This document shows positions 1,497 to 42,115 of a stretch of 64,000 nt of DNA, in pieces. The notes beneath the pieces were generated by a model. The model did no database searches and had not been told where the DNA came from. It saw only the letters and a program-made list of their open reading frames with translations. Both the position numbers and the translations under genes were made by a program. Numbering within the stretch: position 1 is the first letter of the stretch; every line of letters begins with the position of its first letter. Source of the stretch: a virus. Location of the stretch: the UHGV virus genome UHGV-0141727. One strand, written 5' to 3'.

Positions 1497-2203
1497 CACT
1501 CGCCTCCCCAACCGATTACCTGGAATTGCCCCATCCTTGGGTGATACCAGCGTTTTCCTCGGTGTTCAGCCTCCGACATCATCAGGGTAAAGGCATTCAT
1601 GAAGGGAGATAAGGCCACAATAGTACGACGCGACAATACCCCCTCTGGCGTCAAAAACTCATGCGTATCTGTGGGGATCCGGTAAGCGTTGACCAAGTTA
1701 CGGCATTTGGCTTCAGTCAGGCCGCATTTCGCCGCTAACTGGCGATAGCCAATGTAACCTTCCGGCATGTTGCCCTTCTTGATCTGCTCGACGGTTTCAG
1801 CGACCTGGCTAACCTTTGACTCAACAGCATGAAGCCGCTTTTGCTGCTGAACTGCATTCGCAGCCATTGCAGCGATCATCTCTATTTCGGTCAACGGCTG
1901 GCGTACTTGTTCTTCCAGTTCGCGCCAGCGGTCCACCAGCCGGGCGGTAAATTCGGGAGAAAGCTGCGCAACGACAATGATACTGTCACGCTTGCCTTGC
2001 TCGCCTTCGAAGAAATAGGCTTTTGTGTATTTATTAGGGCTAAGTGATTGATTATTCTCAACTGTAGCCAATGGCGTATGTTGGATAACTCCTTTAGCAA
2101 CAAGTCTTTCGATGCTGCGTTTAACATCAGAGTGACGACTTCCCACCAGTTCCGCGATCTCAATGCTGGTCATTGATGGCTTTTCGAGAATGCAGATATC
2201 CAT
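1496..2203 (-). CDS. Rha-family phage regulatory protein / antirepressor (immI-like module 1)
   Basis: N-terminal TSIEIAELVGSRHSDVxRSIERL (Phage_pRha-like). About 90% nt identity over several hundred bp to 51286..52227. Its ATG overlaps the icd-like stop (TGATG). Confidence 0.7.
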   Translation of the reverse strand: MDICILEKPSMTSIEIAELVGSRHSDVKRSIERLVAKGVIQHTPLATVENNQSLSPNKYTKAYFFEGEQGKRDSIIVVAQLSPEFTARLVDRWRELEEQVRQPLTEIEMIAAMAANAVQQQKRLHAVESKVSQVAETVEQIKKGNMPEGYIGYRQLAAKCGLTEAKCRNLVNAYRIPTDTHEFLTPEGVLSRRTIVALSPFMNAFTLMMSEAEHRGKRWYHPRMGQFQVIGWGGE

Positions 2204-2427
2204 CAGTGAGCCTCCGCAATGCCGGGATTGGTAATATTGCGATACCAGGGATTAGTGTTTGGTTGTGGGGAAGTAGAGAAACGACCAGTGAGAACGCCAT
2301 ACTGATCAGGGATCAGAGAACGGGCTTCTTTTTCAGTTGCGGCAATTGCGAAGTGATCACAATGTTTTTGCAGGGAGTGGAAACGCCAGATGAATTCTGG
2401 ACGTGAGCAAGGATTGGCATTAACCAT
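2203..2427 (-). CDS. icd: Icd-like (host cell division inhibitor-like) small protein
   Basis: C-terminal 74 codons of ORF 2203..2751. ATG 2427 is preceded by GAGG. EFIWRF...AATEKEARSL motif as in Icd-like proteins. Position upstream of, and coupled to, the antirepressor as in P1 icd-ant. Confidence 0.6.
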   Translation of the reverse strand: MVNANPCSRPEFIWRFHSLQKHCDHFAIAATEKEARSLIPDQYGVLTGRFSTSPQPNTNPWYRNITNPGIAEAH

Positions 2428-2483
2428 AGTTACGGCCTCATGTACAGGTTTAACAACCTGCAACCCGCTGCTAAACGGGTGGC

Positions 2484-2551
2484 AGGACGTGACGGGGTTA
2501 GCAGACTGGCGTACATGAAACCAGCAGGCCGAAGCCTCCCCATCACGCCCC
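2484..2551 (-). ncRNA. c4: c4-like antisense RNA (module 1)
   Basis: 68 nt with a 14-bp closing stem (GGGGCGUGAUGGGG / CCCCGUCACGUCCU). Contains an AGGC-UUCG-GCCU hairpin and a CUGG/CCAG hairpin with an 11-nt loop carrying CAUGUAC. Single-stranded CUGCUAA follows, and 3' GCCA. The loop and single-stranded boxes are complementary to boxes at 2642-2636/2628-2622 and 2474-2468/2445-2438. Confidence 0.6.
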
Positions 2552-2583
2552 ACCATAATTTGGGCGTAACGTGGTTTACGGAC

Positions 2584-2614
2584 ACAAAAATACCGCAATA
2601 TCGGATATCTGCGG
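2584..2614 (-). terminator. terminator-like hairpin between the a1/b1 boxes and the c4-like RNA
   Basis: Minus strand CCGCAGAUAU-CCG-AUAUUGCGG followed by UAUUUUUGUGU. An analogous element is present in module 2. Confidence 0.4.
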
Positions 2615-2742
2615 TTGTCCGCATGTACATTCAGGCTGCTAAACCCGGTCGCAGAATTTGCTACGACGGCATGAATATAAGCCTGAACATTAGAAAGATC
2701 AACAGAATTTTTATCAGATGCTGTTTTTTTGTGACGATGTAA

Positions 2743-2788
2743 ATCATACATTCCTGATTAGAAACATCAATTTAATTTTCTAACACAC
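2743..2788 (-). promoter_or_regulatory. promoter-operator of immI-like module 1
   Basis: Minus strand GTGTGTTAGAAAAT-taaaTTGATGTTTCTAATCA-ggaatg-TATGAT. The -35 is TTGATG (2770-2765), the -10 is TATGAT (2748-2743), spacer 16. The palindromic operator overlaps the -35. Confidence 0.6.
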
Positions 2789-2842
2789 AATTACGAGCGA
2801 TGATTTTTCCGCCGCACGGTTATTGTACAGTCAATCGCAACA

Positions 2843-3802
2843 TCATCCCCGAAAGCCCTCCGGAATTGACCAGTCTTCCCGGTCAAATTCAGACCGATAG
2901 CCACGCTGTTTCATCTGGTCAAATGCTTCATTGATGGTTGCACATCCCTGGGAACCAGAATAATCCATAGAGAAATCCAGGGCGCTGGATCGTTTGGGCT
3001 TATTCACCGTGGTAGCACTACGTATCCATGCAAATTTTTTTGCCAGTTTTTCAGCGGTACGATACAGAGCCTGCCGTTTTGCGTACCCCTCGTCTGAACG
3101 ACGCTTTGCAGCTCTCGCTTTTGCCGCCGCCAAACAGTGGTTGGTATGTTCTTCCCTGATTACTGTTTTTTTATCCAGCAAGCCATTATCCGCTTGAGAA
3201 CTATCTGCTGGTGAAGCCTTTGGCTGAACCGCGCATGATCTTTCTCTTCTTTTGGCTATAGAGTGACTCTTATTTTCTATTGGCTGTTCATTTTGAACAT
3301 GGGGGGACTTGTTCAATTTGAACAGGGGGTGCCCAGTTTCAAAAAAATAACGAACCTTTGAAATCAACTGCTTAACCAGTTTTGTGGCGTTGGCAAATTT
3401 GATGCCCTGCTTACTCCCTATCTCCATTGCTACATGAATGAAGTGGAGAAATTGTGTTGTAAACCGGTACACGTTACACACCTGAGCATTGTTATTCGCT
3501 ACCTGATGCTGCTTAACAAGCATTCCGCACTTCGTCGCTTCGGTAAATGCCCGGCGCACAGTAGAAATACTGCGTCCTGTAATCTCGGACATATCAGCAT
3601 ATGAGCGACGGATCATGTATTCATCGGTAGCTCCTGCCAGGTTGGCGAACTCGGCAATAATGGCGCTATGTGAAGGGGAAAGAAAACCGCTATGACGAGC
3701 AAAAAAACTCAACTGATGACCTTTGATTTTTTTGTGGTATTCAGTGTTGTTTTTATACTCAGAAGTGTTGAAAGTTACTGGAACTGAATTTAAAATACTC
3801 AT
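2843..3802 (-). CDS. winged-helix DNA-binding protein of unknown role (possible RepL-like initiator or regulator)
   Basis: 319 aa. HTH-like SYADMSEITGRSISTVRRAFTEATKCGMLV with a basic C-terminal half. Lies between two operator sites; own putative promoter with ATAGATTT direct repeats at 3810-3860. Confidence 0.4.
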   Translation of the reverse strand: MSILNSVPVTFNTSEYKNNTEYHKKIKGHQLSFFARHSGFLSPSHSAIIAEFANLAGATDEYMIRRSYADMSEITGRSISTVRRAFTEATKCGMLVKQHQVANNNAQVCNVYRFTTQFLHFIHVAMEIGSKQGIKFANATKLVKQLISKVRYFFETGHPLFKLNKSPHVQNEQPIENKSHSIAKRRERSCAVQPKASPADSSQADNGLLDKKTVIREEHTNHCLAAAKARAAKRRSDEGYAKRQALYRTAEKLAKKFAWIRSATTVNKPKRSSALDFSMDYSGSQGCATINEAFDQMKQRGYRSEFDREDWSIPEGFRG

Positions 3803-5012: not shown

Positions 5013-6698
5013 TTAATTATTGCTCATCACAAATTTTGCAAAGTTGATTAATTGTTCTTGCGTCCAGTTTTCCGGATCGTCACCGGACGACAACGGCGCG
5101 GATTCGTACATACCATGCTCGTTGTTTTGCTCTGATTCATTCGCCTTAAACTCTTTGATCATTACGTTGAGAGTGTCATCGTCGATACGAAGCTGTTCGG
5201 TGAACAGATAGCGCATAAACGCGTCGCTACCCGCCAGTTTCGGGTTGTTCTGGATCTGGTCCATTATTTGCGAGATGACAGCTACGAAGTTGGCGCGCGC
5301 ATCCAGCTCTCGGTTTTCCTCTTCCTGGATAGCTGTGTTCATTGAGTTGAATTGCACGTCATAAGGACGGTTTTTTTCGGTGTAAACCTTCCCGTATTTA
5401 TAAGCGAGGTGAATGTCATGAAGCCGATAAATAGTCCGCTGGGCGGCCTGTCTGATCCAGTTCGCGCGTAATGCGGCCTGGATAGCTGTTTGCTGCCAAC
5501 CGCCTTCTCCAAGCCCCCCACTCATCTGATCAGCCCAGCCAAGCATTGTTGCGTCAATGCCGAGGCTTGCCGCGAGCTGTCGGAGATGAAACATAACGTC
5601 TTCGATACCACTGATATCTGCGGGTATAGATTGCGTATCAATGGTGATCCCGTTCTTCCCATCCCCCATGACAGGTATCAGATGGTTAAGTACAGATGGG
5701 AGAGCATTAGAATTAATTGACCGTTGCGCTACGAGGTCGCTATGGCGCTTCAGTGCCTGGCTGACCCCGCGCGTATAATTCGCCGCGTTTACCGGATCTA
5801 TCGTGTTCGTTGTGAGTGCAATCAGGCGATCAATTTTTGCAGCGTTGTTTCGCGTTGCTTTCAGCGCAGCAAGCGCGGCACATAAATTCAGGTAGGGTTC
5901 ATAACTGTATTCAAGAAACGACGTACCGTAGTTCTGTGTCTCCATTAACGGCTTGTCCTGCTGTTCACTAAGCAAGGAATAGCCTGTAGTGCCGTAAGTT
6001 ACTGGCATTACTTTATGCTGAGGCGTCCAGTACGGGTTTTTCATGGAAACCAGATTCCACGGCTCGGTTATAACTCTGCGCAAAGTATGCGTGTCCAGAA
6101 TGTAATCACCGCTGAATCCGACAAGTTGGCTACCGCGATAAAACTCCTGAACGAAATGAGGGAGCGTGTAATAGCTCGACTCAATTCCAGTTATCCCCTT
6201 CCCTTGCTCTGCATATGGACGGATATACGACACACCGAAAATAGCCATGATCATGGCCCACGATGGAAGGCCATCATTAATCATTGAGCTTAAATCAGCG
6301 GTCAATTCCTCACATCGACTTACAGCCTCCTTATCCGCCCCATTTTTCGGAGCGAGAATAAATGCGAGGCCTGTTTTTTTTGATGGAGCCAGAGAATGCG
6401 CAATGTGAATGTTTAATGCTGTGGAGATAGTCGGACTTTTCGCCATCGTCTCCAGTATGTTGTATTTTTGCAGGCGGTCACTCGGTAATTCTGCCGATAT
6501 AGATACTGTATCCGCCGCGCTTGTCATTCCATCGCTATTGCTCCCCAGGATGCCTGGACGCAAGGCGGACAGGCCAGAACGAGCAACGACGCTATGCCCG
6601 CTCGCAAATACGACCGGATCGGCAGGCGTAACATCACCACCGCTGAAGGCTTTCTTCAATGCCGACAGAAAGCCCTTGTTTTTGTCTTTCGTTGCCAT
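5013..6698 (-). CDS. portal protein (P1 Prt position)
   Basis: 561 aa. Size and position upstream of the protease-like gene, with an acidic C-terminus. Call by synteny only. Confidence 0.55.
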   Translation of the reverse strand: MATKDKNKGFLSALKKAFSGGDVTPADPVVFASGHSVVARSGLSALRPGILGSNSDGMTSAADTVSISAELPSDRLQKYNILETMAKSPTISTALNIHIAHSLAPSKKTGLAFILAPKNGADKEAVSRCEELTADLSSMINDGLPSWAMIMAIFGVSYIRPYAEQGKGITGIESSYYTLPHFVQEFYRGSQLVGFSGDYILDTHTLRRVITEPWNLVSMKNPYWTPQHKVMPVTYGTTGYSLLSEQQDKPLMETQNYGTSFLEYSYEPYLNLCAALAALKATRNNAAKIDRLIALTTNTIDPVNAANYTRGVSQALKRHSDLVAQRSINSNALPSVLNHLIPVMGDGKNGITIDTQSIPADISGIEDVMFHLRQLAASLGIDATMLGWADQMSGGLGEGGWQQTAIQAALRANWIRQAAQRTIYRLHDIHLAYKYGKVYTEKNRPYDVQFNSMNTAIQEEENRELDARANFVAVISQIMDQIQNNPKLAGSDAFMRYLFTEQLRIDDDTLNVMIKEFKANESEQNNEHGMYESAPLSSGDDPENWTQEQLINFAKFVMSNN

Positions 6699-24188: not shown

Positions 24189-25010
24189 TTAATAATGGTT
24201 AGCCATCCATTCAGATCTAATTGATGGGATAAACTCTCTATTGAGAAATGGGGCGTACAGCGTGGTAGTCACGTCTGCACCCTCCTTAGCGTTTTTGCAG
24301 CGTTGTGGCGGTAGGATCAGGCGGCTTGTGCCTCGTTCAATAGCCATTTTTAAGCCGTGGCGAAGGTCTTTCTGCATGAGCTGAATGCGAGCTACCAGAG
24401 GGGTAAACTCGGTTTCCAGTGCCATGTTTTCAATGATATCGAATCGTCTGTTTGCAGCTTGTGTGAAGTCTTCTGGATCGTCGTTCAGAGATGTACACAA
24501 GGCCAACTCAGCTATGCGGAGACGAGCAACCTCAGCACTGTACTCTGGAGTTTTCATATCAGGCAAAGTGGCGCGCATACGTTCAAGCAATTCAGCGCCT
24601 TTCCCTGTTAATGGTTTAAGCGTCCACTCGGTTGGTACTCCGTTTATAGGGACCATAGTTTTAATAAACGGCGGGACAGTCAGGATTTCTACCGTTTCGG
24701 CAAGGTCTGAAAGGTTAATATCTGCGTGATGAACGTTTCCACAGTGACCACACTCGTATGAGTAAGTCATTACGGCATCTGGTCTGGAATTGACAAAGAT
24801 CCACCAAAGCGCGGTTCTGCGATCCTGAACTGTCCAGTTTGAGCTGTCGTTAATTTCGCCGTCTTGCATGGCGTTGAGGTATTCTGTTGTGGTTGCCTCG
24901 TCTTCTGCCGGATTGATGTCTGAATATTTCAGGGCATCTTTCACAGTAGGTGCATGAAACTGAATTTCTATTTCAGGCTGTGAAGGCAATGGGAATTTGG
25001 GAATGTTCAA
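24189..25010 (-). CDS. structural/assembly protein upstream of tape measure (unknown)
   Basis: ORF 24189..25136. A GGAGGA SD 4 nt before TTG at 25010 is the favoured start, because the longer ORF would run into the origin (DnaA box/GATC cluster). Contains CGHCGNVHH. Confidence 0.4.
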   Translation of the reverse strand: MNIPKFPLPSQPEIEIQFHAPTVKDALKYSDINPAEDEATTTEYLNAMQDGEINDSSNWTVQDRRTALWWIFVNSRPDAVMTYSYECGHCGNVHHADINLSDLAETVEILTVPPFIKTMVPINGVPTEWTLKPLTGKGAELLERMRATLPDMKTPEYSAEVARLRIAELALCTSLNDDPEDFTQAANRRFDIIENMALETEFTPLVARIQLMQKDLRHGLKMAIERGTSRLILPPQRCKNAKEGADVTTTLYAPFLNREFIPSIRSEWMANHY

Positions 25011-25081
25011 GGATTCCTCCAGAAAAGTCGGTACTCGTTTGGCTGGAGGATAGGGAGTGTGTGATTTTGACTTTAACCTAT

Positions 25082-25330
25082 TTATCCACAGGGTAGATCC
25101 AATAAATAGATCCCAAAGAGAACCAGTAAGATCCAAAGAAGATCCCGGATCGCTGCGAGCCGCGCCATCACTGGCCTAAATGGAGATCAACATTGACTAT
25201 GTGCGATTTAATGTTGACTATGTGCGATTTTATGTTGACTGTACGCGATTTAATGTTGACTATATGCGATATAAACATTGACTGTATGCGATAATTCTCT
25301 CAGCCCTCAGACGGCTGTGGATAAGTATCT
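25082..25330. other. plasmid replication origin, P1 oriR-like
   Basis: Perfect DnaA boxes TTATCCACA at 25082-25090 and (complement) 25316-25324. Five GATC sites at 25097-25151 inside (A/T)AGATCC heptamers. Five iterons at 25190-25292. Confidence 0.75.
25190..25292 (+). repeat. five direct RepA iterons (incC-like), 21-22 bp phasing
   Basis: A(C/T)(A/G)TTGACT(A/G)T(G/A)(T/C)GCGAT at 25190, 25211, 25232, 25253 and 25275. Confidence 0.9.
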
Positions 25331-25372
25331 TTCATTTGGCTATAAAGCCCCGTCAATCAAGGAAATAACAGG

Positions 25373-26257
25373 ATGGTAGATGACAAAAAAGGCTTTCTGA
25401 ACGTTGAGGAAATATCAGGGAATACCGGAGAAATCCACAGCTTAAAGCCTAACAATAATAGCACTATTCAGCCGATAGCTTTGTTGCGGCTTGGGGTGTT
25501 TGTTCCCACATTGAAATCTACCAGTGTTGCTTTACGTCGCAAGAACGCCGGTTTAACTAACTCCACTGATGCGACAGAAGAACTGTCCAGCCTGAAGATT
25601 GTAGAGCAGGAAGGGTATCAGGGTATTGAGATTCATGGGCCACGTCTGGATATGGATACTGATTTTAAGGTGTGGATAGGCATTACATCTGCATTGTTTG
25701 ACTATAAACCAGATAATGATGGTGTGATCACCCTGACATTCTCTGAATTTGTGGATCGTTGCGGTTATCCAAGGAAGCGGCTGTCCAAGGCTTTTCGCAA
25801 GAGCATTGGCGACTCTCTAACGCGTATTCAGCAGACGTTGCTGAAGTTCAACTTGCCCACCAGCAAAGAACATGTTCGTTATATCCAGATGAATTTATTG
25901 GCATTTAGTGAACTTGATACTGAAAATGACATTATAAGAATCCAACCGCAGAAGCAGTTGTCTGAGTTGTATTACGTTGACTATAAGCGAATATTGAAGC
26001 TCAAAATGCTCGATAAACTTGGCAGGAAAGAGACAGCCAAGGTGCTTTATACGTTTTTCGAAGCGTTACCTTCAAACCCTGCGCCAGTGAGTATTGAGCG
26101 CCTTCGCGCCAGATTGAACCTCAAATCATCGGTTAGCGTTCAGAACAGTGTGATTCGTAAAGCCATGAAAGACTTGGAAGCTGTTGAATATCTTAAATTT
26201 TCAGAGATAAAGAATGGTCGGAAAATAGGTTTCCAGATCCATAAACGAAATCCATAA
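25373..26257 (+). CDS. repA: plasmid replication initiator RepA (P1 RepA family)
   Basis: 294 aa. TIQPIALLRLGVFVP and GPRLDMDTDFKVWIGI match recalled P1 RepA motifs. Flanked by iterons; AAGGAA SD. Confidence 0.9.
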   Translation: MVDDKKGFLNVEEISGNTGEIHSLKPNNNSTIQPIALLRLGVFVPTLKSTSVALRRKNAGLTNSTDATEELSSLKIVEQEGYQGIEIHGPRLDMDTDFKVWIGITSALFDYKPDNDGVITLTFSEFVDRCGYPRKRLSKAFRKSIGDSLTRIQQTLLKFNLPTSKEHVRYIQMNLLAFSELDTENDIIRIQPQKQLSELYYVDYKRILKLKMLDKLGRKETAKVLYTFFEALPSNPAPVSIERLRARLNLKSSVSVQNSVIRKAMKDLEAVEYLKFSEIKNGRKIGFQIHKRNP

Positions 26258-26486
26258 CATTGACTGTGTGCGATTCCAAGCGTTGACTATACGCGACAAA
26301 CATTGACGCTGGCGGATTTAGTTATTAACTTTTTCACATGATCAATGGATAAACCAGCTATTTCATTGAGTATTTGTCGCTTATAGTCAATCTTTCCTCA
26401 TTTCTTGTCGTGTGTAGTCAATGTTTTGTGATCGGGATCGAGTACAGTCAACATTAGTTGTAAGCCATTTCGCCTATAGTCAACAT
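26257..26486. repeat. incA-like iteron array downstream of repA (3 direct + 4 inverted)
   Basis: Direct copies at 26257, 26280 and 26300. Inverted copies (..GTCAATGT/GTCAACAT) at 26376-26393, 26407-26424, 26437-26454 and 26469-26486. Confidence 0.8.
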
Positions 26487-26502
26487 TTCTCCATCAGCAG
26501 TC

Positions 26503-26796
26503 TTAAGGGCAATTTCTACACCTCTCTGTAGGTGTAGGATTTGCCCTTAAAGATGGGAGATTGAGGGCAATTCTTACACCATTAGTGAGTTGGTTGGAGC
26601 TTTAACGGCTAACATCATTTGTAATTTATTGATTAATAAGTAATGTGTAAAAATCACCCTCAGATAGCATCGTATGTTATAGCTATTTTTATAGCACACC
26701 TGTTAAGTGTTTTTTGAATGTAACTCATTGATTTTGTTGTGATGTGTAAAAAATGCCATCATTGACGTAAACAGCAGGTGTAGAAATTGCCCTCAA
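26503..26796. repeat. second, unrelated 19-20 bp repeat family (6 copies) around an AT-rich core
   Basis: Consensus TT(A/G)AGGGCAATTTCTACACC. Copies at 26503-26522 (+), 26531-26550 (-), 26561-26580 (+), 26644-26662 (-), 26743-26761 (-) and 26777-26796 (-). The first two form a 20-8-20 palindrome. Confidence 0.7.
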
Positions 26797-26837
26797 GTTT
26801 GCCCCTTCCCCACCTTCTCGCACTTTAATATTGCATT

Positions 26838-27575
26838 TCAAAACTTGATCACGTTGCTGGCGGCGCTTTTAAGTGCGCTTGTTGCTAAACCAGCAGCTCC
26901 ATTGACTAATGCGGACAGGCCGGAACCAGCAGATGTGTATCGCTGGAACGTGATCGGATAGGACAAGAATTCGGACACCTGATCACGTGAGCGGCTGATC
27001 TCTCCTATCTGAGTAGGAAATACACGCATTTCCTCTTCCAGCTCTTTCCCGCCTTCCTGTGTAACGCGGTATAGCCTGATATTCATGAGATAATCTGGCG
27101 GCAGGTTTAGCGTACCATCGCTATTGGTTACACGGGCGCGGCGCTCCTTGAACCAATTCATTATTTTGCCGTCTTCTGTGTCTCTGACCGTCATTGTTAC
27201 CGGTCCGGCGGTTACGTGCGTTGGCTTATTGAACTCGACGCTACCAATGATTTTGCTTTCTGTTTCAATATTCCCGCTACTGTAAGTTATGTCCTTAACG
27301 AACATATCAAAGCCGCTTAATCCGTCTACATCTACCGTCCACTGCCAGCCCTGGGCATAGCGGATACGCATAGCCGTAGCAACTACGTTCTTTCCGTAAG
27401 CGATGTCATTGCCATAGCTCCCACTAACGCCACTGCCAGACACCGCTCTATCCAGAATGTCGCTGATAAGGTTGCTGGTGAATGATTTCGCGCTAAACGA
27501 TACCGCACTGGCTAGCGTTTGCGTTGCAGCACTAAAAATACTCACGTAGCCCTCCGTGTTAAAAAATGGTAGCAC
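26838..27575 (-). CDS. virion structural protein (unknown)
   Basis: 245 aa in the operon with sheath/tube-like genes; overlaps the upstream gene. Confidence 0.35.
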   Translation of the reverse strand: MLPFFNTEGYVSIFSAATQTLASAVSFSAKSFTSNLISDILDRAVSGSGVSGSYGNDIAYGKNVVATAMRIRYAQGWQWTVDVDGLSGFDMFVKDITYSSGNIETESKIIGSVEFNKPTHVTAGPVTMTVRDTEDGKIMNWFKERRARVTNSDGTLNLPPDYLMNIRLYRVTQEGGKELEEEMRVFPTQIGEISRSRDQVSEFLSYPITFQRYTSAGSGLSALVNGAAGLATSALKSAASNVIKF

Positions 27576-36788: not shown

Positions 36789-36953
36789 ATTTGTCTCAAA
36801 AGGGTATCATTGGTACATCATGTATCATCTAAGTCTCTTTTGTGTCTCTTTTGTGTCTCTAGTTTGATGCTTTTTACGCTATCTAACTTCTGGTCTTATT
36901 TTGTTTTCTCATATAAAATTCAATTCTTTCTCAAATGTGTCTCAGAAGTGGAG
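36789..36953 (+). repeat. parC: parC-like centromere/promoter iterons (11-bp phasing)
   Basis: (T)TTGTGTCTC-type repeats with the GTCTC core at 36792, 36803, 36843, 36854, 36865 and 36949, in sets spaced exactly 11 bp. AT-rich and upstream of parM. Confidence 0.6.
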
Positions 36954-36957
36954 CAAT

Positions 36958-37917
36958 ATGATGCGCATTTTTATCGACGATGGTTCTACCAATATCAAAA
37001 TGCTGTGGGAACAAGACGGGGAAACTCGAACCCATATCTGTCCGAACAGTTTTAAACGTGGATGGTCCGCCACATTTGGCGCAGGAAAGCCGTTTAACTA
37101 CATCATTGATGACGAAAAATATTCATATGACTTGATCTCGCCGGATGTGCTGCCGACGAATAACGTTGAATGGCAATACAGCCCGCTTAATGTGCTTGCT
37201 GTTCATCATGCCCTGCTTACAAGTGGCATTGAGCCTCAAGAAGTGGAAATAGTTGTCACGTTGCCACTGGCAGAGTTTTATGACGACGACGCACAATACA
37301 ACATGAAAAATATTGAGCGGAAAAAGGCCAGCCTGATGCGACCAGTCACCCTTAACAAAGGTCAGGTTTTTACTATCAAAAAAGTGACTGTGCGCCCGGA
37401 GTCAATACCCGCAGGGATCGGTCTGTGCGACAGCCTTGTGCCAGCGCATTCTGTGCTTATTGTTGATCTTGGTGGGACTACTCTGGATGTGTCGATGGTC
37501 GCCGGGCAAATGACCGCCGTTTCTCGCGTATTTGGCGATTCTAATCTCGGCGTTTCGCTGGTAACTAAAGAGGTCAGACAGGCACTTGCAAAAGCGAATA
37601 CCGAAACCTCTAATTATAATGTCGATCAATTAATCATTAATCGTGATGATGAGGATTATTTGACCGACAATATTAACGATCCGTCTGCTATTGATGATGT
37701 TAAGAAAGCCATTTCGTCAAGCATAGAACGACTCCGTACACGCGTACTGGATGTGATCAGTGATTTCAAAGGATACACGCATGTTATGGTCATTGGTGGC
37801 GGCGCGCCGCTTGTTGCTGATGCTATCCGTGAGCAGGTAAACATTCGTGACGATAGGTTTTTCGTTGCTGATGATCCACAACTTGCTCTTGTCTATGGTC
37901 TAAAATCTATCGGTTGA
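36958..37917 (+). CDS. parM: ParM actin-like plasmid segregation ATPase
   Basis: ORF 36901..37917; start MMRIFIDDGSTNIKM at 36958 after GGAG. Collinear similarity to R1 ParM (FIDDGSTNIK, ESIPAG, DLGGTTLD, YTHVMVIGGGA). Confidence 0.9.
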   Translation: MMRIFIDDGSTNIKMLWEQDGETRTHICPNSFKRGWSATFGAGKPFNYIIDDEKYSYDLISPDVLPTNNVEWQYSPLNVLAVHHALLTSGIEPQEVEIVVTLPLAEFYDDDAQYNMKNIERKKASLMRPVTLNKGQVFTIKKVTVRPESIPAGIGLCDSLVPAHSVLIVDLGGTTLDVSMVAGQMTAVSRVFGDSNLGVSLVTKEVRQALAKANTETSNYNVDQLIINRDDEDYLTDNINDPSAIDDVKKAISSSIERLRTRVLDVISDFKGYTHVMVIGGGAPLVADAIREQVNIRDDRFFVADDPQLALVYGLKSIG

Positions 37918-37927
37918 TGAGGTTGCC

Positions 37928-38293
37928 ATGTCTCAGGAACGTCGAAAAGTATTGTTTTATCTTCGTCCTGGTCTTAACGCCAGTGAGCAATATGCTGATG
38001 CAAAACTTGAGGGCCATCCATTAAGAGATCGCAATGATATGGCGCGCACAGCGATGCTTGCAGGTATCGCTCTTGGCGAGGTTGATAGCAGATTACCTCC
38101 CATGTTGGCATCGCTTTTATCCGGTGATAATAGCCCTGAAGTGATCAGAAAAATGCTGGTTTCATTTCTTGAAATTTCGCCTGAAGTTCGGGAAGCCTCT
38201 GAAGGAAACACCTCTGTCTCAGAGGATGTAAAAAAACCAGGCGTTCCGAAAAGCCGCTCTGCACAGAATTTGGCAAACTCACTCCCTGATTAA
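37928..38293 (+). CDS. parR: ParR-like centromere-binding adaptor
   Basis: 121 aa directly after parM. N-terminal RRKVLFYLRPG...R..MARTAMLAGIAL resembles the R1 ParR RHH region. Confidence 0.65.
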   Translation: MSQERRKVLFYLRPGLNASEQYADAKLEGHPLRDRNDMARTAMLAGIALGEVDSRLPPMLASLLSGDNSPEVIRKMLVSFLEISPEVREASEGNTSVSEDVKKPGVPKSRSAQNLANSLPD

Positions 38294-38310
38294 CCAATCT
38301 ACATCTTCAA

Positions 38311-38337
38311 AGGCTGCAATTTGCAGCCTTTTTTATA
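38311..38337 (+). terminator. rho-independent terminator after parR
   Basis: GGCUGCA-AUU-UGCAGCC followed by UUUUUUAU. Confidence 0.8.
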
Positions 38338-38339
38338 CC

Positions 38340-38570
38340 GTTATGGTTCTGGTTTGGTGCTCTTTTAGTACCAAAACGGTGTTGTTATGGTGCTGCTTTG
38401 TATCTGGTTCCACTTTGGGGCTGATTTCGTGTTAAACAGGATGCAACAGAGGGCAAATTTAGAGTGTTTAGTGTTATACTTTTGCAAAGCATAGTGACTC
38501 CACTATAGAGCCAAAACCGCATCAATAAGGCTTCTGTTTGGAACCAGTTTGATACCAAAATAACACCGAG
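38340..38570. repeat. degenerate 14-bp repeats upstream of parA (centromere/operator-like)
   Basis: GT(A/T)CC-N5-(C/T)GGTG-type motifs, e.g. GTACCAAAACGGTG at 38368-38381 and variants at 38346, 38405 and 38540-38567. Confidence 0.5.
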
Positions 38571-38578
38571 GAACGGAT

Positions 38579-39220
38579 ATGATTATATTGGTAGTCAGCC
38601 AAAAAGGTGGCTGTGGAAAATCAACCACAAGCGTAAACATCTGTGCGGAGCTTGCCCGCGAAAATAAGGATGTAGTGTTACTAGATGCAGACAAGCAAGG
38701 AACAGCTGCCCGCTGGGCAGCTGACCGTAACACGGCAGAGGTTTCTCCTGTAATTCATTGTGTCCAGAAGTTTGGTAATATTCGAGAAACACTTCTCGAT
38801 CTGGATAAGCGTTATGAATTTGTAGTTGTTGATACAGCCGGGCGCGATAGCAAAGAGATGCGTACAGGCATAACCGCTGCAGATATTGTGTTGGTCCCAT
38901 TCAGACCATCTCAACCAGATTTAGACACGCTGGCACACTTTGTTGAAGTGTTTGAAGAGGCTTTGGACCTGATGCCTAATCCTAGCATTAAGGCGTTCGC
39001 AGTCTTAACAATGGCCCCATCCAATCCGGTTGTGAATGAAACCAATGAGGCCAAAGAGTACCTAGCTGAATATCCGCAACTGAAGTTGCTGAAAACCATC
39101 ATTCGTGATCGTAAGGTTTACCGCGATTGCATGGCTGAAGGGAAGGGCGTTGTTGAGATGGACAACGGGAAAGCTAAAGGTGAAATCCAGATGTTGGTTA
39201 AGGAGTTATTAAGTGATTAA
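38579..39220 (+). CDS. parA: type Ib ParA/ParF-like Walker partition ATPase
   Basis: 213 aa. Deviant Walker A VVSQKGGCGKST. No N-terminal HTH extension. GAGGAA SD. Confidence 0.85.
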   Translation: MIILVVSQKGGCGKSTTSVNICAELARENKDVVLLDADKQGTAARWAADRNTAEVSPVIHCVQKFGNIRETLLDLDKRYEFVVVDTAGRDSKEMRTGITAADIVLVPFRPSQPDLDTLAHFVEVFEEALDLMPNPSIKAFAVLTMAPSNPVVNETNEAKEYLAEYPQLKLLKTIIRDRKVYRDCMAEGKGVVEMDNGKAKGEIQMLVKELLSD

Positions 39221-39613: not shown

Positions 39614-39637
39614 AAAGCCCCATATGGGGCTTTTCTT
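39614..39637. terminator. bidirectional terminator between the par cassette and dam
   Basis: AAAGCCCC-AUAU-GGGGCUUU with U-rich tails on both strands. Confidence 0.75.
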
Positions 39638-40478
39638 AATTAAGCGTGGCTATAATGTCGTTAGCTATCATTCGCGTTGATGCTTTACAGGATACAGAGC
39701 GACGGGATGGCATAGGATACACCTTGAAGCCATTGCCAACGTAAAGTTCGCGAATGTTAGGCGCTCCACTGTTTGTTATCACAATTTTCGCCCCGCGTCT
39801 GTGAGCATCTACCAGCAGCGACACCAGCCGTTGTTGATCTTCAAACCTAAAGCTATGCCCTGAGTAATTTGTAAATCCGGTAGTGTCGGGCAATGGTTCA
39901 TAGGGGGGATCGCAGAAAATCACATCATCATTCCCGGCAGCCTCAATTACACCAGCAAAATCGCCGGACACAAATTCCGAATACTTTGAAATATCGTCAG
40001 CCAGGAACGCCTCCATTTCCGCGAGAGGGAAGTGGGGTGATTTCTGCTTTCCATATCCGACGTTGAACTCTCCTTTACGGTTATAGCGAGTGACGCCATT
40101 AAAACAATGACGATTGAGATACAGGAACGCCGCTGCATGGTGAAGGGAATCATAAGCACCATTGTTGAATGCATTGCGAACATTCAAAAATGCATCAGCA
40201 GAGTTGTAATCCTGAAAAAAACGATATGCCAGTGTGATAAGAGAATGCCCTTCACGCTGCAATGTCTGATAGAAGTTAATCAGGTCATTATTGATATCGT
40301 TCAGCAGGTTGCTTTTAAATCCGGCATTAGTGAAAACAGCGCCACCTCCAACGAAAGGTTCTATCAACCGTTTTCCGTGGGGCAGGTGTTCGAAGATAAT
40401 GGGCAGTGCAGAAAATTTGCCGCCGACCCACTTAAAGACTGGGCGATCAAATTCGTCCTCCGAGCGAATACGTCGCAT
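39636..40478 (-). CDS. dam: DNA adenine (N6) methyltransferase, Dam family
   Basis: ORF 39636..40670. Conserved core starts at FKWVGGK. Motifs EPFVGGGAVF and DPPYEP. Start at M65 (40478) avoids a 125-nt overlap with the upstream gene. Confidence 0.85.
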   Translation of the reverse strand: MRRIRSEDEFDRPVFKWVGGKFSALPIIFEHLPHGKRLIEPFVGGGAVFTNAGFKSNLLNDINNDLINFYQTLQREGHSLITLAYRFFQDYNSADAFLNVRNAFNNGAYDSLHHAAAFLYLNRHCFNGVTRYNRKGEFNVGYGKQKSPHFPLAEMEAFLADDISKYSEFVSGDFAGVIEAAGNDDVIFCDPPYEPLPDTTGFTNYSGHSFRFEDQQRLVSLLVDAHRRGAKIVITNSGAPNIRELYVGNGFKVYPMPSRRSVSCKASTRMIANDIIATLN

Positions 40479-40545
40479 ATGGCTGATAGTGGCTTCCGCC
40501 GCAGGACGATGATTGTCGCTATAAGAAATAAATTTAGCACCAATA

Positions 40546-41193
40546 TCAGCCACGGATTCCCTCCTTATTTGCTTCAAATACAGCTCTTGCAAAACCGTAA
40601 GGTGTCGCGCTACGAAAATTCGCTCTTTCAGGTCCTGGCGGTGCCTTGTGTATTCGGTTATCTGGATCACCTAACGACTCGTCGATTCGCGGAGTTGGCA
40701 TGATGAATCCTTGTCCGCTCCACAGGCATGTTTTTTTGGTGTAATTGTCTTCCTTGCAATATGCAGTGAAGTGATAAGGATGGAATATGTGGTCAGGTTT
40801 ACGCCAGAATGTCGATATTTGGCTGACCGGGTTTTCAATCATGTACGGGCAACCAATCATCTTTGCAATGTCGTAACACTGCCAGACAACCTGCATTGCT
40901 TTGAACTGGAAAACCGGATCTTTTTTCGCTTTATCTGCGAACCAGCGTGCGCCAGATACAGCCAGGTCAGTACATGGAGGGAAACCGGCTAAAAATACAA
41001 CTCTGTGCAAATTTTTCCGAAGGAAATTGTAGACCTCATCACTGTCAATAATTGCGCTGATACGTGTGAGTACAGCACCTGACTCCATCAATTGGCTGCC
41101 GGACTCCTGGTGTTGCGGATCGACAATGACTGCATCAATGCCGTGTTCCAGCCAGGGGGAAACCATATTCCCTGTATAATCACAAAGACTCAC
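40546..41193 (-). CDS. DNA cytosine-5 methyltransferase-like protein (small, orphan)
   Basis: ORF 40546..41352 overlaps rdgC, so a probable start at GTG 41193 (VSLCDYTG = motif I-like) is preferred. GFPPCTDLAVSG (PC motif), IENP (ENV-like) and RSATPYGFA. Confidence 0.65.
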   Translation of the reverse strand: MSLCDYTGNMVSPWLEHGIDAVIVDPQHQESGSQLMESGAVLTRISAIIDSDEVYNFLRKNLHRVVFLAGFPPCTDLAVSGARWFADKAKKDPVFQFKAMQVVWQCYDIAKMIGCPYMIENPVSQISTFWRKPDHIFHPYHFTAYCKEDNYTKKTCLWSGQGFIMPTPRIDESLGDPDNRIHKAPPGPERANFRSATPYGFARAVFEANKEGIRG

Positions 41194-41209: not shown

Positions 41210-42115
41210 TTAATGCTCTGCTTCACCGCCAATGGCCTCCACCAGCGAGCTAAACATCGCGGATAATTCGCTTGTGAACAGAATGAAGTCAGCATCAAAT
41301 CGCTGGGCAACATCTTCACGGTCGATGTCATCGTTCTGGTCATAGAGATCATCGCAAAACGTCAGTGCTTTGATGCTCATGTCATCGTTTAACCTGAAGG
41401 TCGCGCGGTCCTGCCAGTTGATTGCAACTGTTGTTGCAACTTTTCCGGCTTCAATATGAGTCATTATTTCCTCTGACTGTAGGTCTACTTTCTTGCAACG
41501 AACTGCGCCGCCGTCATCGAACAGAGATTTCAATATGGCTTCTTCGCCTGCTTTAAAGCCTTGAGGAAATGTTGACTTGAACCATTCGGTCATAGTCATT
41601 TCGAGCGGTTCTATCGGCGTGAATGGAATCACCGGAAGGCTGCCAAGTGATTTACGTAAGAGCGCCAGCATTTCTTCTGCTTTTCTGGCGCTGGAAGCTT
41701 CTACGAAGACCAGATAGTTGTCGCGATCAATAAGGATTCGCGACAATGATTTGCGAGTGAATGCGCGAGGCAACAAAGAGTGGAGAACTTCATCCTTCAG
41801 GGTGTTTTTTTCCGACTTCTTCAGCTTACGGGATTGCTCATTTTCGAGCTTTTCCACTTTTTTCTGCACTTCCTCCTTAATGACATGAGAGGGCAGGAGC
41901 TTAATTTCTCGCTGTTGCTGGAGAAGTAGAAAACCGTGGTATTCATGGATCAGGTTGTCAGCCAGAACCGGCACCCATCCGACTTTTGCCATTTCTTGTG
42001 ATGCGCATGGAGTGAATGTGAATTGGCTTAAGGCATCACTAACGGTGGTTGAGTCCAGTTTAATTTCGCGGGCAAGGCGATAGACGTATATGTTTTTAAA
42101 TGCGACCAATCTCAT
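41210..42115 (-). CDS. rdgC: recombination-associated protein RdgC
   Basis: 301 aa, collinear with E. coli RdgC (FKNxxVYRL, FTPCxSQxMAKxGWVP, LKDEVLHSLLPRAF, LALLRKSLGSLPV). Confidence 0.9.
   Translation of the reverse strand: MRLVAFKNIYVYRLAREIKLDSTTVSDALSQFTFTPCASQEMAKVGWVPVLADNLIHEYHGFLLLQQQREIKLLPSHVIKEEVQKKVEKLENEQSRKLKKSEKNTLKDEVLHSLLPRAFTRKSLSRILIDRDNYLVFVEASSARKAEEMLALLRKSLGSLPVIPFTPIEPLEMTMTEWFKSTFPQGFKAGEEAILKSLFDDGGAVRCKKVDLQSEEIMTHIEAGKVATTVAINWQDRATFRLNDDMSIKALTFCDDLYDQNDDIDREDVAQRFDADFILFTSELSAMFSSLVEAIGGEAEH

What the first reader, a model, noticed from the sequence alone, without database searches (positions are those of the whole stretch)
25011..26486. Complete P1-type replicon embedded in the middle of the tail operons
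The replicon has five parts.
- Two perfect DnaA boxes, at 25082-25090 and 25316-25324.
- Five GATC sites in (A/T)AGATCC heptamers, at 25097-25151.
- Five iterons phased at 21 bp.
- The repA gene.
- Seven further iterons downstream, three direct and four inverted.

Point by point this is the oriR/incC-repA-incA design of P1, including Dam-methylatable heptamers, but the iteron sequence is unrelated (ATGTTGACTATGTGCGAT).

The replicon lies between the tape-measure operon and the tube/sheath operon rather than next to a par locus. The element also encodes its own Dam.
Basis: partly seen in the sequence, partly recalled or inferred. Interest (0 to 1): 0.5.

Follow-up and report, generated by a model that had tools for sequence, protein, structure and literature searches.

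The report
P1-family plasmid replicon swapped into D6-like phage
The region is a real, intact plasmid-replication unit of the well-known P1 family, sitting where D6-like phage-plasmids normally keep their replicon; it replaced an F-plasmid-type replicon and left that replicon's binding sites behind, so it is an ordinary kind of system with an instructive history.

Summary
The window's only two perfect DnaA boxes flank five iterons spaced 21, 21, 21 and 22 bp. The densest GATC cluster in the 64 kb lies between the left box and the iterons. An intact 294-aa repA follows, then 3 direct and 4 inverted iterons.

It is a genuine P1-family replicon. RepA is 41% identical to P1 RepA and 85% identical to the "p0111" RepA of P1-like phages such as RCS47 and SJ46. 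The left half of the origin aligns with P1 oriR base by base. The iterons are not novel: they have the p0111 consensus.

The host element is a D6-like phage-plasmid, and D6 and most relatives keep their replicon at this same pmgB/tub site. Theirs is a mini-F (RepE) type. The window carries a 1,425-bp cassette (25068-26492) that replaced that origin and rep gene. It left the last 14 nt of the RepE-type gene and six orphan RepE-type iterons (26493-26796).

Other D6-like plasmids carry a true P1/IncY replicon at the same site, so the site exchanges replicons. The cassette occurs in 6 of 5,426 complete E. coli genomes.

Verdict: a new member of a known kind, of modest interest.

The parts
25068..26492 (+). 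Replicon cassette: the P1-family, p0111-like origin, repA and downstream control iterons. It is non-homologous to the RepE-type replicon that occupies this site in the near-identical backbone pEC361_3.
   Evidence: The window is 98.2% identical to pEC361_3 up to 25067 and 99.8% identical from 26493 onward, with no homology between. Window 25082-26319 is 77% identical to the RCS47 replicon.
25082..25090 (+). DnaA box 1 (TTATCCACA), at the left end of the origin.
   Evidence: It aligns with the tandem DnaA boxes annotated in P1 oriR.
25094..25151 (.). Cluster of five GATC (Dam) sites: four in (A/T)AGATCC heptamers, one degenerate heptamer (GAGAACC) and one CGGATCG. By analogy with P1, this is the presumed origin-opening and SeqA-sequestration region.
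   Evidence: the densest GATC cluster in the window. (aligned with the five Dam sites annotated in P1 oriR).
25152..25188 (.). G+C-rich spacer conserved with P1 oriR (GCCGCGCC...TGGC).
   Evidence: invariant columns across window, RCS47, pNCYU and P1. (64% GC over 25148-25180).
25189..25294 (+). Five origin iterons (incC-like), with the consensus (A/T)ATGTTGACT(A/G)T(A/G)(C/T)GCGAT and spacing 21, 21, 21, 22 bp. By analogy with P1, the repA promoter is presumed to lie within or next to them.
   Evidence: The spacing is the same as P1 iterons 14-10.
25316..25324 (-). DnaA box 2 (perfect, inverted), between the iterons and repA.
25373..26257 (+). repA: a 294-aa iteron-binding initiator with two winged-helix domains, intact and under purifying selection.
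   Evidence: Pfam Rep3_C is above its cut-off; Rep3_N is just below. 41% identical to P1 RepA and 85% to p0111 RepA. dN/dS is 0.016-0.035. The AF2 model matches RctB, RepE, pi and pPS10 RepA.
25976..25992 (+). Iteron-like site inside repA (GTTGACTATAAGCGAAT).
   Evidence: It is identical in RCS47, where it is the third-longest identical run in a gene with 49% third-position identity. Function unproven.
26255..26316 (+). Three direct downstream iterons (incA-like). The first overlaps the repA stop codon. The third is degenerate or hybrid (ACATTGACGCTGGCGGATT).
   Evidence: The arrangement matches P1 incA copies 9-7.
26374..26487 (-). Four inverted downstream iterons (incA-like), spaced 30-32 bp. 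RCS47 has five and P1 has six, so the array appears cut short at the cassette's right junction.
26493..26506 (+). Last 14 nt (ATCAGCAGTCTTAA, ...QQS*) of the displaced RepE-type rep gene. This is the right junction scar.
   Evidence: It is identical to the 3' end of the rep genes of D6 and pEC361_3.
26504..26795 (.). Six orphan iterons of the displaced mini-F/RepE-type replicon, at 26504(-), 26532(+), 26562(-), 26645(+), 26744(+) and 26778(+), with an A+T-rich stretch among them. No cognate Rep gene is present.
   Evidence: same positions as in pEC361_3 and D6. (100% identical to pEC361_3 over 26493-26800). No RepE-type gene in the window. None in the remaining 30 kb of the near-identical plasmid NZ_CP085065.1. 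The D6 Rep is a RepE homologue.
24189..25010 (-). Left flank: pmgB homologue, first gene of the sit (tape-measure/transglycosylase) operon. The longer 315-aa ORF reaching 25136 is a start-codon artefact.
26838..27545 (-). Right flank: tail tube gene (tub), last gene of the sheath/tube operon.
39636..40670 (-). Dam-family N6-adenine DNA methyltransferase encoded by the element itself.
   Evidence: PF02086 E 2e-53. TIGR00571 at 231 bits against a cut-off of 115. GATC specificity is inferred from family membership.

Best explanation
Window 25068-26492 is the functional low-copy plasmid-maintenance replicon of a D6-like phage-plasmid. It belongs to the P1 RepA family and is closest to the 'p0111' subtype of P1-like phages.

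Inferred mechanism, following the P1 paradigm:
- RepA monomers bind the five 21-bp-phased origin iterons.
- Host DnaA binds the flanking boxes.
- Together they open the adjacent A+T-rich GATC-heptamer region, which must be Dam-methylated. SeqA sequesters that region when it is hemimethylated after initiation.
- RepA bound at the origin iterons represses its own promoter.
- The seven downstream iterons titrate RepA and pair ('handcuff') with origin iterons to hold copy number down, and they act as an incompatibility determinant.

Shown by sequence comparison:
- The cassette arrived by replacing the origin and rep gene of a mini-F (RepE)-type replicon, which is the usual occupant of this pmgB/tub site in D6-like elements.
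- The replacement left the last 14 nt of that rep gene and six of its copy-control iterons as orphans at 26493-26796.
- The same cassette, with the same right junction, sits in strongly diverged D6-like backbones. It therefore spreads among them, presumably by homologous recombination in the flanks.

The replication mechanism itself is inferred from homology. It was not tested.
For: Architecture and statistics.

Homology to P1:
- RepA is 41% identical, E 2e-70.
- The origin's left half is conserved at nucleotide level, and the iteron phasing is identical.
- P1's annotated oriR, incC and incA features are matched one for one.

Homology to the p0111 type: 78% in DNA and 85% in protein, with the same iteron consensus and co-linear iteron positions.

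RepA is intact and constrained:
- 17 synonymous against 1 non-synonymous difference versus pNCYU-26-73-5.
- 9 against 0 versus NZ_CP085065.1.
- dN/dS 0.035 versus RCS47.

Fold: the model matches winged-helix iteron initiators RctB, RepE, pi, pPS10 RepA and TrfA.

Sole plasmid initiator:
- No RepE-type gene in the window.
- None in the other 30 kb of the 98.8%-identical plasmid NZ_CP085065.1, whose only other replication gene is the lytic RepL.
- MOB-suite assigns that plasmid one replicon cluster.

The element exists as a 93-95 kb circular plasmid in six complete E. coli genomes.

Swap:
- Sharp breakpoints against pEC361_3, 98-99.8% identical outside and unrelated inside.
- D6 and at least 91 PLSDB plasmids carry the RepE-type replicon at the same site.
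- The D6 Rep matches F RepE at E 1e-73.
- The orphan iterons are co-linear with those of D6 and pEC361_3.
- The cassette is 94-98% identical between the window and pNCYU, while flanking pmgB is 82% and tub 74.5% identical.

Own Dam gene.
Against: - There is no experimental evidence of replication, RepA-iteron binding, or DnaA or Dam dependence for this variant.
- No consensus sigma-70 promoter was found in or next to the iterons by the simple scan. The repA promoter is therefore unplaced. Weak candidates are TTGACT-17-GACTAT within the iterons and TGGATA-17-TATAAA over DnaA box 2.
- There is a single DnaA box on each side, against tandem boxes in P1.
- The downstream array has 7 iterons, against 9 in P1 and 8 in RCS47, and seems truncated at the junction. 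Copy-number control may therefore differ.
- Pfam Rep3_N scores just below its gathering cut-off.
- RepA has no NCBIfam match and no PDB match by sequence.
Confidence: 0.85

Rival explanations
1. The cassette is a decaying relic, and the element is maintained by another replicon, for example one outside the 64-kb window.
For: - The downstream iteron array is shorter than in P1 and RCS47.
- No clear promoter was found.
- The window covers only about two thirds of the roughly 94-kb element.
Against: - repA is full length and under strong purifying selection.
- All origin elements are intact and perfect.
- The remaining 30 kb of the 98.8%-identical plasmid holds no other plasmid initiator, only lytic RepL, and no RepE-type gene.
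- The displaced RepE-type replicon has lost its origin and its gene.
Confidence: 0.04
2. The region is the lytic (vegetative) origin of the phage rather than the prophage-plasmid replicon.
For: It lies among late structural operons.
Against: - A separate RepL-type 'lytic replication protein' gene is annotated at the left edge of the region covered by the window. In P1 and D6-like elements, RepL drives lytic replication (PMC6799933).
- This RepA and origin are homologous to the P1 R replicon, the plasmid-maintenance replicon.
Confidence: 0.02
3. This concerns the flanking part at 26493-26796. The orphan RepE-type iterons are not a neutral scar. They are retained because they are useful: they titrate the Rep protein of co-infecting D6-type relatives, giving one-way incompatibility or exclusion, while the element's own RepA is unaffected.
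For: - Four to six orphan iterons persist in all three swapped lineages examined, including pNCYU, whose backbone is 18-25% diverged.
- From my own knowledge, downstream iteron clusters of F (incC) and P1 (incA) exert incompatibility in trans when cloned.
Against: - In the window the orphan region is 100% identical to that of a plasmid with a working RepE-type replicon. Its conservation here reflects recency, not selection.
- The other two lineages show decay: an 88-bp deletion and a core substitution in NZ_CP085065.1, and a fusion deletion of two iterons in pNCYU.
- D6 and pNCYU likewise carry decaying P1-type iteron remnants, as expected for neutral scars.
Confidence: 0.2

Closest known systems
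p0111-type replicon of P1-like phage-plasmids (RCS47, SJ46, JL22; PlasmidFinder type 'p0111')
   Same: - RepA has the same length (294 aa) and is 85% identical; the DNA is 77-78% identical across 25082-26319.
- The iteron consensus and every architectural element are co-linear: DnaA box, GATC heptamers, 5 iterons spaced 21/21/21/22, the internal site, 3 direct repeats, then inverted repeats at about 31 bp.
   Different: - Synonymous sites are saturated (dS about 3), so this is a distinct subtype. MOB-suite assigns it rep_cluster_2164.
- It sits in a D6-like backbone between pmgB and tub, not next to parAB and gene 23 as in P1-like phages.
- It has four inverted downstream iterons instead of five.
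- It has a perfect second DnaA box, where RCS47 has a 1-mismatch box.
- A published survey states that the IncY and p0111 replicons occur only in P1-like phage-plasmids (PMC9603915).
Phage P1 R replicon (oriR/incC-repA-incA, IncY)
   Same: - Homologous RepA, 41% identical.
- Homologous left half of the origin, down to the GC-rich spacer.
- Five Dam sites, five iterons with identical phasing, and a first incA-type iteron that overlaps the repA stop codon.
- Three direct then inverted control iterons.
   Different: - The iteron sequence is diverged, with 8 of 19 positions shared (my own count). P1 has GATGTGTGCTGGAGGGAAA; the window has AATGTTGACTATGTGCGAT.
- There are 12-13 iterons instead of 14.
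- There are single DnaA boxes on both sides instead of a tandem pair.
- It is not adjacent to parAB; the nearest partition genes (ParM-like and ParA-like) lie about 10 kb away at 36901-39220.
Phage D6 and D6-like plasmid prophages (MF356679; pYU39_89)
   Same: - Same backbone and same replicon site between pmgB and tub.
- The window retains the D6-type downstream iterons and the last codons of the D6-type rep gene.
   Different: D6's replicon is of the mini-F type. Its Rep (orf42, 251 aa) matches F RepE at E 1e-73 and has GGTGTAAGATTTGCCCTCA iterons. It has no detectable similarity to the window's RepA by tblastn.
IncY <-> p0111 replicon replacement in P1-like phage-plasmids
   Same: Exchange of one iteron replicon for another at a fixed site in an otherwise conserved phage genome. 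This is reported for JL22 and for Salmonella phage-plasmids (PMC9603915; PMC11165635).
   Different: - Here the exchange is in the D6 lineage and at a different site.
- It involves three replicon types: RepE-type, IncY-type and p0111-like.
- It leaves recognisable, layered orphan iterons of the previous occupants.

Membership tests
P1-family plasmid replicon (oriR/incC-repA-incA) | Initiator homologous to P1 RepA | tested here: met
   BLASTP gives 41% identity over 271 aa, E 2e-70. tblastn to the P1 and P7 records gives E 1e-58.
P1-family plasmid replicon (oriR/incC-repA-incA) | DnaA box(es) at the end of the origin | tested here: met
   Perfect boxes at 25082-25090 and 25316-25324, the only two in the 64 kb. 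The left box aligns with P1's annotated DnaA site.
P1-family plasmid replicon (oriR/incC-repA-incA) | Five GATC sites in heptamer repeats between the DnaA boxes and the iterons | tested here: met
   Five GATCs at 25096-25151: four in WAGATCC and a fifth in CGGATCG. P1 has the same pattern of four plus CTGATCG.
P1-family plasmid replicon (oriR/incC-repA-incA) | Five roughly 19-bp iterons in helical phase (21 bp) directly upstream of repA | tested here: met
   Spacing is 21, 21, 21, 22, identical to P1.
P1-family plasmid replicon (oriR/incC-repA-incA) | Downstream control locus of iterons in both orientations, starting at the repA stop codon | tested here: met
   3 direct and 4 inverted iterons, the first overlapping the TAA stop. 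P1 has 3 + 6 and RCS47 has 3 + 5.
P1-family plasmid replicon (oriR/incC-repA-incA) | Autonomous low-copy replication dependent on RepA, DnaA and Dam methylation | not testable with these tools
   This needs cloning and tests in dnaA and dam mutant hosts.
IncY (P1 sensu stricto) specificity group | P1-type iteron sequence (GATGTGTGCTGGAGGGAAA) | tested here: not met
   No P1-type iteron (up to 4 mismatches) occurs in 24900-27000. 8 of 19 positions are shared with the window's iteron consensus (my own count). The element should therefore not be IncY.
p0111 replicon type | Same iteron consensus and RepA as the p0111 reference group | tested here: inconclusive
   The iteron consensus is the same, but RepA is only 85% identical and the DNA 78%. 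It is a sister subtype. Cross-incompatibility is predicted but not testable here.
Winged-helix (WH1-WH2, Rep_3) iteron initiators | Rep_3 sequence signature and a two-winged-helix fold | tested here: met
   Pfam Rep3_C scores 26.5 bits, above its 21.1 cut-off. Rep3_N scores 20.4, just under its 22.4 cut-off. Homologues carry PF01051. The AF2 model (pLDDT 71.6) hits RctB, RepE, pi, pPS10 RepA WH1 and TrfA, at probability 0.97-1.0 for these initiators.
Mini-F (RepE) type replicon, for 26493-26796 only | RepE-family initiator gene with upstream origin iterons | tested here: not met
   No RepE-type ORF is found in the window or in the rest of the close relative NZ_CP085065.1. Only the last 14 nt of the gene remain. 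This is a remnant, not a replicon.
Mini-F (RepE) type replicon, for 26493-26796 only | RepE-type iterons downstream of rep (incC-like) | tested here: met
   Six copies are co-linear with those of pEC361_3 and D6. F's own iterons share the ...TTGCCCTCA half. The D6 Rep matches RepE structures at E 1e-73.

The most novel reading that the evidence does not exclude
The pmgB/tub intergenic site of D6-like phage-plasmids is a dedicated replicon-exchange locus.

- Whole iteron replicons of three types (mini-F/RepE type, P1/IncY type, p0111-like type) are swapped in by recombination.
- Each swap leaves the distal control iterons of its predecessor. pNCYU-26-73-5 shows three layers.
- The retained orphan iterons would not be neutral. 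They would act as a one-way incompatibility weapon that titrates the initiator of relatives still using the old replicon.
- A replicon switch would then both free the element from incompatibility and let it displace its ancestors.
Probability: 0.2. Interest if true: 0.55.

Novelty: new member of a known kind. Interest (0 to 1): 0.3.

Why it matters
Plasmid-typing schemes and surveillance pipelines treat the IncY and p0111 replicons as markers of P1-like phage-plasmids. They screen for D6-like elements with the D6 repB gene (PMC9603915; bioRxiv 10.1101/2025.09.12.675607). A D6-like element carrying a p0111-like or IncY replicon would be mistyped or missed.

The shared iteron consensus predicts that this D6-like element is incompatible with p0111-type P1-like phage-plasmids. 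Those often carry ESBL genes. It also predicts compatibility with ordinary D6-type elements. That would change which phage-plasmids can co-reside in one cell.

The clean breakpoints and layered orphan iterons give a concrete example of modular replicon turnover at a fixed site in a phage genome. They also offer a simple test of whether leftover iterons have competitive value.

Mechanistically, nothing departs from the P1 paradigm.

Tried and rejected
- **Second copy of the cassette.** I looked for a second copy of the cassette or its iterons, because the similarity search reported '2 places' per record. There is none in the window, L001 or L007. The second 'place' is probably the inverted iterons matching the direct ones on the other strand.
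- **RepE-type rep gene.** I looked for one elsewhere in the window and in the rest of the closest plasmid. None was found.
- **PDB sequence search with RepA.** No significant hit. Fold comparison was needed instead.
- **NCBIfam.** No family matched RepA.
- **Promoter scan.** No consensus promoter lies in or near the iterons, so the repA promoter remains unplaced.
- **Literature.** The D6 genome paper (Gilcrease & Casjens 2018, PMC5800970) is not held. I could not check whether it already mentions alternative replicons at this site. Full-text searches found no paper describing a p0111-like replicon in a D6-like backbone.
- **Co-residence as a compatibility test.** No complete E. coli genome carries the cassette and a p0111-type plasmid on two separate records (414 matching records in 414 genomes). 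With 6 and 408 carriers among 5,426 genomes, only about 0.45 co-occurrences are expected, so this is uninformative.
- **Conservation of the orphan iterons as evidence of selection.** Rejected, because the window is 100% identical there to a plasmid with a working RepE-type replicon.
- **Internal iteron-like site in repA.** Its conservation against RCS47 is only the third-longest identical run, so a function is not established.
Full report
**1. The observation**

- TTATCCACA occurs exactly twice in the 64-kb window, at 25082-25090 (+) and 25316-25324 (-). Chance expectation is 0.48. The two boxes bracket the iteron array.
- Five GATC sites lie at 25096-25151. No other 60-bp span in the window holds five.
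- Four of those five are in (A/T)AGATCC heptamers. The fifth is CGGATCG, and one heptamer slot is degenerate (GAGAACC).
- The core TTGACTRTRYGCGA gives 13 matches at up to 2 mismatches, against 2.8 expected. None of 100 shuffles reaches 13.
- Five cores lie upstream of repA at spacings of 21, 21, 21 and 22 bp. Two strong direct copies and one degenerate direct copy follow the stop codon. Four inverted copies follow at a pitch of 30-32 bp. One further copy lies inside repA.
- repA (25373-26257) encodes 294 aa. Its Pfam Rep3_C hit is above the cut-off, and its Rep3_N hit is just below it.
- The element's own Dam-family methyltransferase gene is real: 39636-40670 (-).

**2. What the replicon is**

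The DNA is 77-78% identical across 25082-26319 to the replicon of the P1-like phages RCS47, SJ46 and JL22, and to about 400 P1-like plasmids. The literature calls this replicon type 'p0111' (PMC9603915; PMC11165635).

RepA is 85% identical to that RepA. It is 41-45% identical to the RepA proteins of SSU5-like phages and of P1 and P7.

NCBI's annotated P1 record lists every oriR, incC and incA feature. Laid side by side, the match is homology rather than analogy:
- The DnaA box, the heptamers and the G+C-rich spacer (GCCGCGCC...TGGC) align almost column for column.
- P1's iteron starts are also spaced 21, 21, 21 and 22 bp.
- In both, the first downstream iteron overlaps the repA stop codon.
- In both, three direct repeats are followed by inverted repeats at a pitch of about 31 bp.

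The iterons differ from P1's. P1 has GATGTGTGCTGGAGGGAAA and the window has AATGTTGACTATGTGCGAT, with 8 of 19 positions shared by my own count. They have the same consensus as RCS47's iterons. The statement 'the iteron sequence is unrelated' therefore holds only against P1 itself.

An AlphaFold model built on 25 homologues (pLDDT 71.6, with a disordered N-terminus) hits the winged-helix iteron initiators RctB, RepE, pi, pPS10 RepA and TrfA.

repA is under strong purifying selection:
- 17 synonymous against 1 non-synonymous change versus pNCYU-26-73-5.
- 9 against 0 versus NZ_CP085065.1.
- dN/dS of 0.035 versus RCS47.

**3. Context**

The flanking tail genes are 74% identical in DNA to phage D6 and only patchily similar to P1. 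The element is therefore a D6-like phage-plasmid.

D6 itself has a rep gene (orf42) with iterons at exactly this site, between pmgB (first gene of the sit operon) and tub. So do at least 91 PLSDB plasmids and at least 64 complete E. coli genomes. Living 'in the middle of the tail operons' is therefore the family norm. PMC6799933 already notes a repB with iterons in a D6-like plasmid.

That resident replicon is a different kind:
- The D6 Rep matches F-plasmid RepE structures at E 1e-73.
- Its iterons (GGTGTAAGATTTGCCCTCA) share the ...TTGCCCTCA half with F's.
- Its origin shows the F ori2 layout: a DnaA box, an A+T-rich stretch, a GATC site and direct iterons.

**4. The swap**

pEC361_3 (NZ_AP027414.1) carries the RepE-type replicon. 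Against it, the window is 98.2% identical up to 25067 and 99.8% identical from 26493 onward, with no homology between.

By segment, pmgB is 99.6% identical, tub is 99.7%, and 26493-26800 is 100%.

The 1,425-bp cassette at 25068-26492 replaces 1,070 bp that held the RepE-type origin and rep gene.

The right junction keeps the last 14 nt of that gene (ATCAGCAGTCTTAA, 26493-26506). It also keeps all six downstream RepE-type iterons, at 26504-26795.

No RepE-type gene exists in the window. None exists in the other 30 kb of the 98.8%-identical plasmid NZ_CP085065.1, whose only other replication gene is lytic RepL. These iterons are therefore orphans, and the P1-family RepA is the only plasmid initiator.

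The left junction lies just after a 20-bp block (GGATAGGGAGTGTGTGATTT) that is conserved among D6-like elements upstream of pmgB.

The cassette's downstream array has four inverted iterons, against five in RCS47 and six in P1. It ends at the junction, so it was probably truncated by the recombination event.

**5. Spread and turnover**

- The cassette, at 95% identity or better, is present on 93-95-kb plasmids in 6 of 5,426 complete E. coli genomes and in 2 PLSDB plasmids. The p0111 type is in 408 genomes.
- The RepA cluster at 90% identity has 16 member sequences. Both contigs retrieved for the exact RepA sequence show the D6-like gene order.
- A 76%-identical RepA from a metagenome sits in a P1-like order of repA, parA, parB and gene 23.
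- pNCYU-26-73-5 (CP042620.1) has the same cassette at 94-98% identity and the same right-junction scar. Its flanking pmgB and tub are only 82% and 74.5% identical to the window's. One original swap was therefore followed by transfer of the cassette between diverged D6-like backbones.
- Three other D6-like plasmids (NZ_CP066033.1, NZ_CP077480.1, NZ_AP018804.1) match D6 only in the two flanks of this site, with a rep gene between. I examined NZ_CP066033.1. It carries a true P1/IncY-type replicon there: RepA is 84% identical to P1 RepA, with P1-type iterons arranged 5 + 3 + 4.
- D6 and pNCYU both retain two P1-type iteron remnants next to the tub stop codon, distal to the RepE-type iterons. These are homologous to the last iteron of the IncY-type occupant.
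- The simplest reading (inference) is serial replacement: IncY-type, then RepE-type, then p0111-like. Each replacement left its predecessor's distal iterons. pNCYU shows all three layers, and the window shows two.

**6. How it most likely works**

All of this is inferred from homology to the P1 R replicon. The P1 biochemistry cited here is from my own knowledge of the Chattoraj and Austin laboratories' work.

- RepA monomers load on the five in-phase iterons.
- DnaA binds the boxes. A single box is reported to suffice in P1.
- The A+T-rich heptamer region, which must be fully Dam-methylated, is opened.
- SeqA sequesters that region while it is hemimethylated.
- RepA at the origin iterons autorepresses repA.
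- The downstream iterons titrate RepA and handcuff the origin, setting a low copy number and exerting incompatibility.

The element's own Dam homologue could ensure methylation (inference).

The repA promoter was not located by the consensus scan.

Because the iteron consensus equals that of p0111 replicons, I predict cross-incompatibility with p0111-type P1-like phage-plasmids. I predict compatibility with IncY P1 and with RepE-type D6-like elements.

**7. Verdict**

The system is nevertheless a sister subtype of a very common replicon, at the standard replicon site of its host family. It is already present in public plasmid records, annotated as a 'RepB family' initiator and typed as MOB-suite rep_cluster_2164.

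What is new, to my knowledge and after three full-text searches, is twofold:
- A p0111-like replicon, and in other members an IncY replicon, inside the D6 lineage.
- The clean cassette boundaries with layered orphan iterons.

This is a useful correction for plasmid typing and a neat case of modular replicon turnover. It is not mechanistically surprising. Interest is 0.3, and the classification is a new member of a known kind.

Noticed in passing
window 26493-26796: Six orphan iterons of a mini-F/RepE-type replicon, plus the last 14 nt of its rep gene, lie immediately right of the reported feature. No cognate Rep is encoded anywhere on the element.
   Followed up: yes
L008 (NZ_CP066033.1) 2020-3380; NZ_CP077480.1 and NZ_AP018804.1 give the same two-flank match with a rep gene between but were not read: Some D6-like plasmids carry a true P1/IncY-type replicon at the same pmgB/tub site. 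In NZ_CP066033.1, RepA is 84% identical to P1 RepA, with P1-type iterons arranged 5 + 3 + 4. This is a third replicon type at one locus.
   Followed up: partly
L003 (phage D6) 8912-8951; L005 (pNCYU-26-73-5) 5194-5233: Two P1/IncY-type iteron remnants sit next to the tub stop codon, distal to the RepE-type iterons. They suggest an even earlier IncY-type occupant. pNCYU therefore shows three replicon layers.
   Followed up: partly
window 25976-25992: An iteron-like sequence (GTTGACTATAAGCGAAT, encoding VDYKR) lies inside repA. It is identical in RCS47 despite 49% third-position identity overall, but it is only the third-longest identical run. It may be a functional internal RepA site or just a coding constraint.
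   Followed up: partly
window 26298-26316: The third direct downstream repeat (ACATTGACGCTGGCGGATT) looks like a hybrid: a p0111-type left half and a P1-type right half (GCTGGCGG). It is conserved in RCS47 and lies at the position of P1 incA copy 7.
   Followed up: no
window 26654-26741: This 88-bp segment is absent from the otherwise 98-99% identical NZ_CP085065.1. It is flanked by 43-nt direct repeats (26620-26662 and 26719-26761), so the orphan iteron region is losing units by repeat-mediated deletion.
   Followed up: partly
window 25015-25067: The 50 bp upstream of pmgB are only about 75% identical to pEC361_3, while pmgB itself is 99.6% identical. They are 100% identical to NZ_CP085065.1. 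The recent recombination tract therefore began at the pmgB start codon and carried in a foreign allele of the sit-operon upstream region.
   Followed up: partly
window 24189-25136 (-): The mechanical ORF list extends pmgB to 315 aa, across DnaA box 1 and the GATC heptamers. Annotated homologues start at 25010 (274 aa), so the origin does not overlap coding sequence.
   Followed up: yes
window 25943-25960 (-): A terminator-like hairpin with a T-run lies on the strand antisense to repA. It could stop late transcription that reads through from the tube/sheath operon, or it could be chance.
   Followed up: no
hits H205, H206 and H209 (NZ_CP127300.1, NZ_CP172188.1, NZ_CP122828.1): Some D6-like plasmids have about 1.6 kb of extra genes (Icd-like, ORF6N or Rha family) inserted at this same replicon site.
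   Followed up: no
window 36901-39220 and 41210-42115: The partition and accessory genes lie about 10 kb right of the replicon. They are a ParM/StbA-like gene (36901-37917), a small partner gene (37928-38293), a ParA-family ATPase (38579-39220) and RdgC (41210-42115), next to the Dam gene.
   Followed up: partly
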